Shown piece after piece: positions 785 through 3,123 of a DNA stretch of 4,729 bases. The stretch comes from a virus (lineage: Duplodnaviria; Heunggongvirae; Uroviricota; Caudoviricetes). The stretch lies in the IMG/VR virus record IMGVR_UViG_2563366944_000006; one strand, 5' to 3'. Made by a program: the position numbers and the translations under genes. The notes beneath the pieces are model-generated. The model was given only the letters and a program-made list of their open reading frames with translations. It searched no databases and was not told the DNA's origin. How positions within the stretch are numbered: position 1 is the stretch's first letter; each line of letters begins with the position of its first letter.

Positions 785-2848
785 ATGACAGTAAAAATTT
801 CTGGCGTGCTTAAAGATGGCACAGGAAAACCAGTACAGAACTGCACCATTGTGCTGAAGGCCAGACGAACCAGCAGCACGGTGGTGGTGAACACGGTGGC
901 CTCTGAAAATCCGGATGAAGCCGGGCGTTACAGCATGGATGTTGAGTATGGCCAGTACAGCGTCACCCTGCTGGTTGAAGGTTTTCCGCCTTCACATGCC
1001 GGGACCATTACCGTCTATGAAGGTTCCAGACCAGGTACGCTGAATGATTTTCTCGGTGCCATGACGGAGGATGATGCCCGTCCGGAGGCACTGCGCCGTT
1101 TTGAGCTGATGGTGAATGAAGTGGCACGTCATGCCGGAGCGTCATCACAGAGTGCAGCGGCGGCAAAGAAATCCGAAACGGCAGCAGCCTCATCGAAGAA
1201 TGCAGCGAAAACCTCAGAAACGAATGCAGCTAACAGCGCACAGGCGGCAGCGGCCTCGCAGACTGCATCGGCAAACTCCGCGACAGCAGCCAAAAAATCA
1301 GAAACCAGCGCGAAAAATAGCGAGACAGCCACAAAGGCCAGCGAAAAAAACGCAAAATCCAGCCAGACGGCAGCGAAAACCAGTGAGACGAATGCCAAAG
1401 ACAGTGAAGCCAACGCAAAGGTGAGCGAAACAGCGGCGGCGAACTCGGCGAAAGCATCGGCAGCAAGCCAGACGGCAGCAAAAGCAAGTGAAGATGCTGC
1501 CAGAGAATACGCAAACCAGACAGCAGAGCCGTACAGATATGTTTTACAGCCGCTGCCGGATGTGTGGATACCCTTTAATGATTCGCTGGATATGATTACG
1601 GGCTATTCTCCGGGTTATAAAAAAGTGAAGATTGGTGATAATGTGGTTCAGGTTGCCAGTGATAAACAGGTTAATTTCAGTCGCGCATCAACGGCAACAT
1701 ATATCAACAAATCTGGCGAACTGAAAACGGCGGAAATTAATGAGCCACGATTTGAGTGTGATGGCCTGCTTATTGAGGGGCAAAGAACGAACTTCTTCCC
1801 GAACAGTACAGACCCTTCGAAGTGGAATAAGTCAACTTCACTGGACGTTACAGAAACAGGCACAGATAGTTTCGGGTTTAATTATGGCCGGTTTGTCGTA
1901 CAGGATTCGATTGTTGGTACAAGTAAAGCGCATACCATTATCGGACTGTATTCGAGTACCGGAGGGGTTGATACTTCAGGGGACGAAAAGCATGTAACTA
2001 TATCCTGTCGGGTAAAAAGTGAAGTTGATAATATCGCCGTTCGTATTTTATTTGAACATTATGATGGGGAGGTAAGGACATCAATAGGAGCAGCAAACCT
2101 GAACCTTACCACCCGCATAATTAGCAAGACAGGTCAGACAAGCCGTGTTACAGCAAGGTCTGTTAAGGATGATGCAACTGGCTGGATATTTTTTGAGGCT
2201 ACATTAAAAGCAGATACAACAGAAAATACGGTTGGTGGTTTTGTCCAGTATTCTCCGGATACAGGGCAGATGGTTGCATCAGGGGATTATCTCGATGTAA
2301 CCACTCCACAGATTGAGGCTGGTACAGGCGCATCATCTTTTATTGTTACGGGGACGGCACCGGTAACGCGGGCAAGCGATATGGTTACAGTTCCGATTAA
2401 GAATAATCTTTATAATCTTCCTTTTACGGTTCTTTGTGAGGTACATAAGAACTGGTATAAAACGCCAAATGCAGCACCGCGTGTTTTTGATATCTGCGGT
2501 CATCAGGCCGGTGCGGGGATCGTAATGGGGTTTGGTTCATCAGGTGGGTACGACGGTTTTCCGTATTGTGATATAGGTGGTTCAGACCGACGAATAAATG
2601 AAAATGCCGGGCTGGAAAAAATGCTTATTGGTATGCGGGTAAAGTCCGAACGGTCCACATGTGTAGTCAGTAACGGTAAGTTAAGCAGCGAAACTAAAAC
2701 CAAATGGGAATATATCCGGAGTACAGCAACCATTCGCATTGGTGGACAAACTACAGCAGGATTACGCCATTTATTTGGGCATGTGAGGAATTTTCGTCTC
2801 TGGCATAAAGAGCTAACAGATGCGCAGCTTGGGGAGGTTGTGGAGTGA
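785..2848 (+). CDS. stf: Side tail fibre protein (lambda Stf-like N-terminus and repeat shaft; divergent C-terminal receptor-binding region)
   Basis: 687-aa ORF; GGTGG Shine-Dalgarno at 774-778. N-terminal ~110 aa (MTVKISGVLKDGTGKPVQNCTIVLKARR...GRYSMDVEYGQYSV...FPPSHAGTITVYE...TLNDFL.AMTEDDARPE) matches my recollection of lambda Stf (orf-401) nearly residue for residue. Residues ~120-240 are degenerate SET-N/A-AK repeats typical of the Stf shaft. The C-terminal ~400 aa is unlike lambda Stf; the ending ...NFRLWHKELTDAQLGEVVE resembles the end of concanavalin/LamG-like lectin domains (weak, memory-based). Confidence 0.9.
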   Translation: MTVKISGVLKDGTGKPVQNCTIVLKARRTSSTVVVNTVASENPDEAGRYSMDVEYGQYSVTLLVEGFPPSHAGTITVYEGSRPGTLNDFLGAMTEDDARPEALRRFELMVNEVARHAGASSQSAAAAKKSETAAASSKNAAKTSETNAANSAQAAAASQTASANSATAAKKSETSAKNSETATKASEKNAKSSQTAAKTSETNAKDSEANAKVSETAAANSAKASAASQTAAKASEDAAREYANQTAEPYRYVLQPLPDVWIPFNDSLDMITGYSPGYKKVKIGDNVVQVASDKQVNFSRASTATYINKSGELKTAEINEPRFECDGLLIEGQRTNFFPNSTDPSKWNKSTSLDVTETGTDSFGFNYGRFVVQDSIVGTSKAHTIIGLYSSTGGVDTSGDEKHVTISCRVKSEVDNIAVRILFEHYDGEVRTSIGAANLNLTTRIISKTGQTSRVTARSVKDDATGWIFFEATLKADTTENTVGGFVQYSPDTGQMVASGDYLDVTTPQIEAGTGASSFIVTGTAPVTRASDMVTVPIKNNLYNLPFTVLCEVHKNWYKTPNAAPRVFDICGHQAGAGIVMGFGSSGGYDGFPYCDIGGSDRRINENAGLEKMLIGMRVKSERSTCVVSNGKLSSETKTKWEYIRSTATIRIGGQTTAGLRHLFGHVRNFRLWHKELTDAQLGEVVE

Positions 2849-3123
2849 GAGATTTCACGTTGCGTTTCAGTGATAAAGCAGATTTCAGGGCATTTCTCAG
2901 GAAACTTAACTGGGAAGAGGACGAAGAGCTGCAGAATGCCGTTCTGGTTGATGAGATTGGTTTTACGTTCAGTGAGTCAGGTGTTTCTGCTGACGGGGAG
3001 CCTGAATACACGCGAGACGAAGGGTACTTTGTTAATATTCGTCTTCTTGACGATGGCTTTGATGAATCCGTGTTCCGTGAGTGGGTGGTTACACCAGAGC
3101 GCCCGCTCAGGGAGTGGTTTTAA
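2845..3123 (+). CDS. Hypothetical small acidic protein, translationally coupled to stf (function unknown; candidate fibre chaperone or moron)
   Basis: 92-aa ORF starting at GTG 2845, which overlaps the stf TGA stop (GTGA at 2845-2848). Strong GGGGAGG Shine-Dalgarno at 2831-2837, 7 nt upstream. No internal Met, so GTG is the only plausible start. Strongly acidic composition (EEDEELQ, DGEPEYTRDEGY, DDGFDES). I do not recognise the family. Confidence 0.6.
   Translation: MRDFTLRFSDKADFRAFLRKLNWEEDEELQNAVLVDEIGFTFSESGVSADGEPEYTRDEGYFVNIRLLDDGFDESVFREWVVTPERPLREWF

What the first reader, a model, noticed from the sequence alone, without database searches (positions are those of the whole stretch)
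2845..3123. Strongly acidic 92-aa protein with GTG start and no methionine
The protein is very acidic (many D/E, few K/R) and has no Met, so the GTG overlapping the stf stop is its only sensible start. Small acidic phage proteins are often partner-binding chaperones or nucleic-acid mimics that inhibit host restriction or DNA-binding proteins. Either would be notable at this location.
Basis: inference. Interest (0 to 1): 0.5.

Follow-up and report, generated by a model that had tools for sequence, protein, structure and literature searches.

The report
Small acidic partner of tail-fibre tip
This is a real, conserved 92-residue acidic phage protein that always travels with one particular sugar-binding-type tail-fibre tip, so it is most likely a helper or accessory of that fibre and not a DNA mimic; its function has never been tested.

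Summary
ORF 2845-3123 starts at a GTG that overlaps the stf stop (GTGA) and sits 7 nt after a GGAGG. It encodes a 92-aa protein with pI 4.25, net charge -12.5 and no internal Met. "Few K/R" is overstated, because there are 11.

The protein belongs to an uncharacterised family (PHROG 1361) with no Pfam, NCBIfam, PADLOC or PDB match. With a 22-sequence alignment AF2 gives a confident small alpha/beta fold (pLDDT 91). That fold has no significant structural neighbour, and neither Ocr/ArdA nor any Tfa appears among the listed hits.

The main result is genomic. In lambda-, T1-, T5- and rV5-like coliphages, a Mu-like prophage, metagenomic sipho- and podoviruses and a cyanomyovirus, family members lie immediately after a protein that ends in the same ~430-aa module. 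This module combines a GTA-head-spike-fibre domain with a LamG-like end. In most of the loci read, the start abuts or overlaps that protein's stop.

Two relatives whose module lacks the LamG-like end have no small partner. Acidity is conserved across the family, and the fibre's last 160 aa are mostly basic.

My best reading is a fibre-dedicated accessory protein, either a chaperone or a retained subunit. A joint or adaptor for a distal fibre is the main rival. The DNA-mimic reading is not supported. Interest is moderate.

The parts
785..2848 (+). stf: side tail fibre, 687 aa. It has an N-terminal prophage tail-fibre anchor (PF08400, aa 1-131), an Ala/Ser/Lys/Glu-rich repeat shaft (about aa 105-250) and a C-terminal module.
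   Evidence: Pfam PF08400 at E 4e-68. PHROG 1419 'tail protein'. PGAP annotates it as 'prophage tail fiber N-terminal domain-containing protein'.
1553..2845 (+). C-terminal ~430-aa fibre module (Stf aa 257-687). It is the invariable upstream neighbour of the small protein in every lineage examined.
   Evidence: It is 41-59% identical to the fibre ends of IrisVonRoten gp22, tuinn_17 and nimi_170. tblastn finds it in 225 phage records. An HMM of the module hits the upstream proteins in 9 further loci at E 1e-13 to 1e-73, and BLASTP aligns the Leclercia prophage protein over Stf aa 252-682 at E 4e-33.
1769..2374 (+). GTA head-spike-fibre-like domain (Stf aa 329-530).
   Evidence: NCBIfam NF048003 at E 8e-20. 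The only PDB relative is RcGTA head spike fibre Rcc01080, 6tb9, at E 4.9e-6.
2375..2845 (+). LamG-like terminal domain (Stf aa 531-687), basic, ending in ...LFGHVRNFRLWHKELTDAQLGEVVE.
   Evidence: pI 8.94 and charge +3.9. The homologous protein in the Leclercia prophage carries PF13385 Laminin_G_3. The same terminal strand motif is seen in all upstream proteins.
2833..2837 (+). Shine-Dalgarno GGAGG, 7 nt before the GTG, inside the end of stf.
   Evidence: Read directly from the sequence.
2845..3123 (+). orf92: small acidic alpha/beta protein (PHROG 1361 family). Its GTG start overlaps the stf stop (GTGA).
3133..3429 (+). orf98: hydrophobic 98-aa protein (PHROG 1443), last gene of the fibre operon. 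It is lambdoid-specific and is not part of the cassette in other phage groups.
   Evidence: GRAVY +0.52. PHROG 1443 at E 4e-44. Homologues at 76-80% identity follow the small gene in ev243, PhiR40_1, PhiR57_1, ev058 and UPEC129, and follow the distal fibre in 2G7b.
3436..3455 (.). GC-rich hairpin at the end of the stf-orf92-orf98 unit. The scan scored it as a terminator for the minus-strand ykgJ-like gene.
   Evidence: No promoter-like site lies between stf and orf98.

Best explanation
orf92 encodes a dedicated accessory protein of the side tail fibre. It is translated immediately after Stf by termination-reinitiation at GTGA, so roughly one copy would be made per fibre chain. It folds into a compact acidic alpha/beta domain. 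I propose that it binds the basic LamG-like terminal domain of the fibre's C-terminal lectin-like module, probably through its conserved but unstructured C-terminal P-x-R-x-W tail and its conserved N-terminal strand. The most likely role is a holding or assembly chaperone, or a retained accessory subunit, needed for that module to fold, trimerise or stay soluble. What is shown: the gene is real, the family exists, the fold is confidently predicted, acidity is conserved, and the gene is consistently adjacent to this module. What is inferred: physical binding, which domain it binds, and chaperone activity.
For: (1) Adjacency. The small protein is found in 195 phage records and the fibre module in 225. 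In all 18 records whose coordinates appear in both lists, the small gene starts 0-21 nt after the module ends.
(2) Lineage independence. The N-terminal anchors differ between lambda-like, T1-like, T5-like and rV5-like phages, yet the C-terminal ~430 aa and the small gene travel together.
(3) Distant family members. Members at 20-38% identity still follow a protein ending in the same module. This holds in two metagenomic phages where the pair lies among head genes, in a Leclercia Mu-like prophage where it lies between DNA_circ_N and the baseplate hub, in further T5-like contigs, and in cyanomyovirus S-WAM2 (gp055/gp054, small-family HMM E 4e-19).
(4) Truncated modules. Two relatives whose module lacks the LamG-like end have no small partner: RcGTA Rcc01080 (325 aa, followed by capsule genes per PMC5026251) and RcWaterboi gp56.
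(5) Start/stop junctions. The start overlaps or abuts the fibre's stop (GTGA, ATGA, TGATG, TAATG) in the 7 loci whose junction was printed and in most other loci read. Exceptions are a 2-nt gap in S-WAM2 and an intervening 53-aa ORF in L015.
(6) Charge. Acidity is a family trait: 89 members have median pI 4.28 and median net charge -10. The last 160 aa of the partner fibres have pI 7.9-9.7.
(7) Structure. AF2 gives pLDDT 91.2 for the domain, but the invariant R89/W91 tail has low confidence, as expected for a partner-binding peptide.
(8) Selection. In lambdoid loci that have no distal fibre, dN is about 0.3 with dS saturated, so purifying selection acts there too.
Against: There is no direct evidence of binding, and no fusion of the two proteins was found among the hits. 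The small protein and the fibre module do not co-diverge. PhiR57_1 and ev058 share a 93%-identical small protein, but their fibre modules are only ~45% identical. The window and 2G7b share an 81%-identical fibre end, but their small proteins are 43% identical. Any contact must therefore be with a conserved feature. Beta-sandwich lectin domains usually fold unaided, and RcGTA Rcc01080 was made in E. coli alone and bound capsule (PMC10218006). The fold has no similarity to known fibre chaperones. S-WAM2 gp056 has the full module but is followed by another module protein and not by a small gene. The charge complementarity is modest: the fibre end carries +1 to +8.
Confidence: 0.5

Rival explanations
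1. The small protein is a structural joint or adaptor. It stays on the tip of the proximal fibre and provides the docking site for the N-terminus of a second, distal fibre, much as T4 gp35/gp36 join the two half-fibres. In the window the distal fibre has been lost or was never acquired, leaving the joint protein behind.
For: In IrisVonRoten, AKFV33, two T5-like metagenomic contigs, tuinn and lambda-like 2G7b, the gene after the small one is a second fibre, often with a Peptidase_S74 chaperone domain. A conserved distal-fibre N-terminus (MATxTVIPxDITKLKN) occurs in 36 phage records. In all 11 records that could be cross-checked, it lies 10-20 nt after the small gene (versus 15). Fibre-like proteins with other conserved N-terminal motifs follow the small gene in L007, L016 and S-WAM2. 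PMC11990801 models IrisVonRoten gp24 as attached to the proximal fibre gp22 and does not account for gp23.
Against: Many loci have no distal fibre after the small gene: the window and the lambdoids ev243, PhiR40_1, PhiR57_1 and ev058; rV5-like nimi; L006, where head-tail connector genes follow; and the Leclercia Mu-like prophage, where the baseplate hub follows. The gene is nevertheless intact and under purifying selection there. The proximal module itself is also always present, so it could equally be the docking site.
Confidence: 0.25
2. The small protein is a DNA mimic or other anti-defence protein: an acidic decoy that inhibits type I restriction enzymes or another host DNA-binding protein.
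For: It has pI 4.25 and net charge -12.5, and acidity is conserved across the family. It is small and has no known function.
Confidence: 0.04
3. The small protein masks or regulates the lectin site. It occupies or shields the sugar-binding or basic face of the LamG-like end inside the producing cell or on the free virion, and is released on contact with the host surface.
Confidence: 0.1

Closest known systems
Tail fibre assembly proteins of the Caudo_TAP family (lambda Tfa, P2 G, Mu U; PF02413)
   Same: It is encoded immediately downstream of the fibre gene, moves horizontally together with the fibre's receptor-binding end, and is small.
T4 hinge proteins gp35/gp36, and branched fibres such as DT57C LtfA/LtfB
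   Same: In T5-like, T1-like and some lambda-like relatives the small gene lies exactly between a proximal and a distal fibre gene.
   Different: It is much smaller and no homology was detected. DT57C LtfA and LtfB are numbered as consecutive genes (gp108, gp107), which suggests no gene lies between them, and each carries its own S74 chaperone domain (PMC4728585, PMC10713586). The window itself has no distal fibre.
DNA-mimic anti-restriction proteins (T7 Ocr, ArdA)
   Same: It has a strongly negative net charge and is small.
   Different: The predicted fold is different. The genomic setting is structural and, by inference, late. The conserved residues are not the acidic ones.
RcGTA head spike fibre Rcc01080 (PDB 6tb9), which is a relative of the partner protein and not of orf92
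   Same: Stf aa ~298-545 is homologous to Rcc01080. Rcc01080 is a capsule-binding, lectin-like fibre (PMC10218006).
   Different: Rcc01080 lacks the LamG-like terminal domain and has no small downstream partner (PMC5026251).
PHROG 1361 / pVOG VOG7707 / FIG00640743 'hypothetical protein'
   Same: orf92 is a full-length member. The same family is annotated in tuinn and nimi as VOG7707, and in ev243 and PhiR40_1 as FIG00640743.
   Different: These catalogues assign no function.

Membership tests
PHROG 1361 (uncharacterised phage protein family) | Full-length match to the family HMM | tested here: met
   E 2.5e-39, residues 1-92 against profile positions 1-92 of 92.
PHROG 1361 (uncharacterised phage protein family) | Family signature residues (M1, D3, L6, F8, D36, G60, N64, R66, R89, W91) | tested here: met
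   All are present in the window protein. They are invariant in the 22-sequence alignment A3 and largely conserved among 89 members.
Caudo_TAP tail fibre assembly proteins (Tfa/G/U, PF02413) | Sequence match to PF02413 | tested here: not met
   The Pfam scan at E<=0.1 gives only two sub-threshold chance hits and no PF02413.
Caudo_TAP tail fibre assembly proteins (Tfa/G/U, PF02413) | Tfa-like fold | tested here: not met
Caudo_TAP tail fibre assembly proteins (Tfa/G/U, PF02413) | Gene immediately downstream of the fibre gene it serves | tested here: met
   GTGA overlap with stf. The same position is seen in all relatives examined except L015, where a 53-aa ORF intervenes.
Caudo_TAP tail fibre assembly proteins (Tfa/G/U, PF02413) | Required for fibre folding or assembly | not testable with these tools
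   This needs genetics or biochemistry.
DNA-mimic anti-restriction proteins (Ocr, ArdA) | Strongly acidic surface | tested here: met
   pI 4.25 and net charge -12.5. The family median is -10.
DNA-mimic anti-restriction proteins (Ocr, ArdA) | Ocr- or ArdA-like fold with phosphate-mimicking charge arrays | tested here: not met
   The predicted fold is beta-alpha-alpha-beta4-alpha. No DNA mimic appears among the listed structural hits. The acidic positions are not conserved.
DNA-mimic anti-restriction proteins (Ocr, ArdA) | Early or leading-region expression, separate from structural genes | tested here: not met
   The gene is embedded in structural operons in every lineage. No promoter-like site precedes it. 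Expression timing itself was not measured.
DNA-mimic anti-restriction proteins (Ocr, ArdA) | Inhibits type I restriction-modification enzymes | not testable with these tools
   This needs a plating assay.
Fibre joint / adaptor proteins (T4 gp35/gp36-like role) | Gene lies between the proximal and distal fibre genes | tested here: not met
   In the window the next gene is a 98-aa membrane protein. The feature is met in relatives such as IrisVonRoten, AKFV33, tuinn and 2G7b.
Fibre joint / adaptor proteins (T4 gp35/gp36-like role) | Present in the mature virion | not testable with these tools
   The gel-band mass spectrometry of AKFV33 reported ORF137 and does not mention ORF136 (PMC3326045), and a ~10-kDa protein could have escaped a gel-band survey, so it is uninformative.

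The most novel reading that the evidence does not exclude
The small acidic protein defines a previously unrecognised class of fibre accessory protein with a new fold. It would be obligatorily paired with a LamG-ended lectin module that phages mount on tails, baseplates and possibly heads. It would act both as the module's assembly factor and as the universal socket onto which interchangeable distal fibres plug. That would explain how T5-, T1- and lambda-like phages build branched or two-part fibres and swap their tips.
Probability: 0.15. Interest if true: 0.65.

Novelty: new variant of a known kind. Interest (0 to 1): 0.42.

Why it matters
Receptor-binding modules are the parts most often swapped when phage host range is engineered. 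If this lectin-like fibre end works only together with its 92-aa partner, then grafting the fibre end alone would fail and the small gene must be moved with it. This would apply to the many lambda-, T1-, T5- and rV5-like coliphages that use the module, including the BASEL phages IrisVonRoten, KarlBarth, VogelGryff and JeffSchatz.

It would also give a first functional hypothesis to a 'hypothetical protein' annotated in hundreds of E. coli genomes and about 200 phage genomes. It could help explain how two-part lateral fibres are joined, which the published models of IrisVonRoten leave open for gp23 (PMC11990801).

Tried and rejected
- **First AF2 run.** With only 5 near-identical sequences it gave a poor model (pLDDT 62). 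I repeated it with 22 diverse sequences.
- **Word-based protein search with the single sequence.** It found only close relatives and frameshifted or truncated copies. The exhaustive profile search was needed to reach the wider family.
- **Four long multi-repeat hits from that search.** P0045, P0051, P0068 and P0075 (PKD-like, Fn3/ConA-like and a 100-aa eukaryote-like repeat) reach their E-values by summing 5-9 weak stretches. I rejected them as spurious.
- **Weak sequence hits.** The PDB profile hit to Tetrahymena telomerase p19 (E 0.003) and the Pfam hits Nore1-SARAH and Herpes_UL42 (below cut-off) were judged to be chance.
- **Co-divergence test.** I compared the small protein with two segments of the fibre. 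There was no tight co-variation, and recombination breakpoints fall at the gene junction, so this could neither support nor locate a contact.
- **Literature.** I read two BASEL papers, two DT57C papers, two of the RcGTA papers found, the AKFV33 proteome paper and the SIA3lw paper. None assigns a function to this protein.
- **RcGTA ghsA/ghsB as an analogous pair.** Rejected, because rcc01079 is the spike base and lies upstream, so it is not a small downstream partner.
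Full report
**Setting**

The window is the distal end of the tail region of a lambdoid E. coli prophage.
- lom lies at 34-633 (PF06316, E 2e-129).
- A terminator-like hairpin lies at 737-766.
- stf lies at 785-2848.
- The finding, orf92, lies at 2845-3123.
- A hydrophobic 98-aa ORF lies at 3133-3429.
- Cargo genes follow: a YkgJ-type Cys-cluster protein on the minus strand and a VapA/VapB-family protein.
- The last ~70 bases are an IS1 end.

The small gene is identical in chromosomes such as E. coli AR_0013 and UPEC129. AR_0013 and CE10 also match the downstream cargo region at 99.7%.

**Check of the observation**

Its GTG overlaps the stf stop as GTGA, and a GGAGG sits 7 nt upstream. The product has 92 aa, pI 4.25, net charge -12.5, 23 D+E, 11 K+R, and no Met apart from the initiator.

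"Few K/R" is an overstatement. Everything else is correct.

Homology confirms the start. The family N-terminus M-[KR]-D-x-x-L-[KR]-F is invariant, and the relatives whose start I read begin at ATG in the same position.

The gene is annotated as a hypothetical protein in 365 of 5426 complete E. coli genomes. It is a full-length member of PHROG 1361, function unknown.

**The protein itself**

Pfam, NCBIfam, PADLOC and a profile search of all PDB sequences gave nothing meaningful.

An exhaustive profile search of 1.84 billion representatives found 55 hits. A second profile search found 130. The true members are 76-116 aa.

Four long multi-repeat hits are artefacts of summed weak matches.

In a 22-sequence alignment the invariant positions are M1, D3, L6, F8, D36, G60, N64, R66, R89 and W91. 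The family signature is therefore a hydrophobic/Gly/Asn/Arg/Trp pattern ending in P-x-R-x-W, not a set of acidic positions.

Overall acidity is nevertheless conserved. Across 89 members the median pI is 4.28 and the median net charge is -10, ranging from -2 to -16.

AF2 with the 22-sequence alignment gives a confident model (pLDDT 91.2, pTM 0.77). The order of elements is beta-alpha-alpha-beta-beta-beta-beta-alpha. The conserved C-terminal tail has low confidence.

The structural searches gave no significant neighbour.
- Foldseek against the PDB gives nothing below E 0.01.
- BFVD returns only uncharacterised phage proteins of similar size.
- Neither Ocr/ArdA nor any Tfa appears among the listed hits.

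**The decisive evidence is genomic**

tblastn finds the small protein in 195 phage records. These span:
- lambda-like phages;
- Drexlerviridae (T1-like);
- Dhillonvirus;
- Seuratvirus;
- Markadamsvirinae (T5-like);
- Vequintavirus (rV5-like).

In every case the small gene lies directly after a (lateral) tail-fibre gene.

These fibres have unrelated N-terminal anchors but share the last ~430 residues with the window's Stf (aa 257-687). Identity to Stf is 59% for tuinn_17, 54% for IrisVonRoten gp22 and 41% for nimi_170.

The module alone is found in 225 phage records. In all 18 records for which both coordinate sets were listed, the small gene begins 0-21 nt after the module ends.

The module consists of a domain related to the RcGTA head spike fibre, followed by a LamG-like end.
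- The first domain matches NF048003 at E 8e-20. Its only PDB relative is Rcc01080, 6tb9.
- The LamG-like assignment rests on PF13385 in the Leclercia homologue.

Humolli et al. describe the same region of IrisVonRoten gp22 as a galectin-like domain that may act as an extra receptor-binding domain. They do not discuss the small gp23 (PMC11990801).

**Distant members tell the same story**

Family members at only 20-38% identity were traced to their contigs.
- In two metagenomic phages, the pair lies among head genes.
  - In L006 a 625-aa protein and the small one lie upstream of the head-tail connector genes.
  - In L007 a 941-aa protein and the small one lie after the capsid gene.
- In Leclercia and Atlantibacter Mu-like prophages, a 498-aa Laminin_G_3 protein plus the small protein lie between DNA_circ_N and the baseplate hub.
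- In T5-like contigs the order is LtfC, a 570-aa fibre, the small protein, then an S74-ended distal fibre.
- In the T4-like cyanophage S-WAM2, gp055 is followed by gp054 (116 aa, pI 4.07, small-family HMM E 4e-19).

An HMM of the module hits the upstream protein in each of these loci except the Leclercia prophage, at E 1e-13 to 1e-73. The Leclercia protein was part of the HMM seed, and BLASTP aligns it over Stf aa 252-682 at E 4e-33.

The start overlaps or abuts the stop (GTGA, ATGA, TGATG, TAATG) in the 7 junctions I printed.

Two relatives contain only the first half of the module and have no small partner: RcGTA Rcc01080 and RcWaterboi gp56 (PMC5026251). This points to the LamG-like end as the relevant neighbour.

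That end is mostly basic. Its pI is 8.9 in the window and 7.9-9.7 elsewhere.

**What it most likely does**

This signature matches what is classically seen for fibre-specific assembly or accessory proteins: a small gene that follows one particular fibre end through unrelated phage lineages, starts at that fibre's stop codon, and carries the opposite charge.

I therefore favour a dedicated partner of the LamG-ended module, either a chaperone or a retained subunit. I put this at about 0.5.

Binding, the contact site and the chaperone activity itself are all inferred.

Two observations limit the claim. First, the two genes recombine independently.
- PhiR57_1 and ev058 share a 93%-identical small protein, but their fibre modules are ~45% identical.
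- The window and 2G7b share an 81%-identical fibre end, but their small proteins are 43% identical.

Any contact must therefore be with a conserved feature. Second, lectin-like beta-sandwiches often fold unaided, as recombinant Rcc01080 did (PMC10218006).

**The main rival: a structural joint**

In many virulent relatives and in lambda-like 2G7b, the next gene is a second fibre. A conserved distal-fibre N-terminus (MATxTVIPxDITKLKN) was found in 36 phage records. In all 11 records I could cross-check, it lies directly after the small gene.

Against this, several loci lack a distal fibre: the window and many lambdoids, rV5-like phages, L006 and the Mu-like prophages. They still keep the gene intact under purifying selection, with dN ~0.3 and dS saturated.

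I give the joint reading about 0.25. The two roles are not mutually exclusive.

**Other rivals**

The DNA-mimic reading gets about 0.04. It is contradicted by the fold, by the structural-operon context in strictly virulent phages, and by the fact that the conserved residues are not the acidic ones.

A lectin-masking role is possible but purely speculative (about 0.1).

**Comparison with known families**

The protein would work like a Tfa-type accessory but is not a member of Caudo_TAP. Both the sequence test and the fold test were not met.

It is a member of PHROG 1361 / VOG7707, which carry no function. No paper I could find assigns it a role.

I rate it a new variant of a known kind: a fibre accessory protein with a new fold and a new partner type. 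Interest is moderate. It is a testable hypothesis for a widespread 'hypothetical protein' and is relevant to engineering receptor-binding proteins, but nothing about it would astonish a phage biologist.

Noticed in passing
window 3133-3429 (+): orf98 is a hydrophobic ~95-99-aa protein (PHROG 1443, GRAVY +0.52, two or three hydrophobic stretches by eye). It closes the fibre operon in lambdoid phages whether or not a distal fibre is present: in 2G7b it follows the distal fibre. It is absent from the T1-, T5- and rV5-like loci examined. It could be a membrane moron, for example for superinfection exclusion. Its function is unknown.
   Followed up: partly
window 3548-3880 (-) and 4066-4518 (+): The cargo region after the fibre operon holds a YkgJ-type CxxCxxCC protein (PF03692) and a VapA/VapB-family protein (PF05526, E 5e-34, the Rhodococcus equi virulence-associated protein family). 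This arrangement covers >=80% of the query in 98 of 5426 E. coli genomes.
   Followed up: partly
window ~4660-4729: The last ~70 bases belong to an IS1 element. Only one genome (NZ_OZ547117.1) matches the window through this junction. The others stop at query position 1536, which is window 4659.
   Followed up: partly
L014:3792-3941, L003:6289-, L004:6292- (distal fibre genes of 2G7b, IrisVonRoten and tuinn): Distal fibre proteins in lambda-, T1- and T5-like phages share a short N-terminal motif, M-A/V-T-x-T-V-I-P-x-D-I-T/K-K/T-L-K-N/S. It was found in 36 phage records. In the 11 that could be cross-checked it lies 10-20 nt after the small acidic gene. It is probably the docking peptide of the distal fibre.
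   Followed up: partly
L007:6316-6951 and L019:5532-6062 (S-WAM2 gp053): In a metagenomic podovirus-like contig and in cyanomyovirus S-WAM2, the gene after the small protein encodes a fibre-like protein with the N-terminal motif P-x-Q-[VI]-P-x-N-x-x-L-G-x-M-A-F-x-D. This may be a second type of docking N-terminus associated with the same cassette.
   Followed up: no
L019:2521-5179 (S-WAM2 gp056 and gp055): Two tandem proteins each carry the full LamG-ended module, but only one small partner gene (gp054) follows the second of them.
   Followed up: no
window 1100-1535 (Stf aa ~105-250): The fibre shaft is a low-complexity Ala/Ser/Lys/Thr/Glu repeat (AK-x-SETNA-like). It also aligns with the shafts of the T5-like and T1-like fibres. 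It produces spurious Pfam and NCBIfam hits (Mitofilin, SOG2, DNA polymerase III tau).
   Followed up: no
phage records MG065635, MG065652-55, MG065666, MG065676: GenBank records named 'Campylobacter phage' (C2, C11, C12, C14, C15, A12a, A116, among others) carry fibre and small-protein genes 99-100% identical to those of E. coli rV5-like phages. The host assignment looks doubtful, or the records may be contaminated.
   Followed up: no
window 737-766 (+): A strong terminator-like hairpin (13-bp stem followed by a T run) lies between lom and stf. Expression of stf, orf92 and orf98 would therefore depend on antiterminated late transcription or on a promoter the scan did not detect.
   Followed up: no
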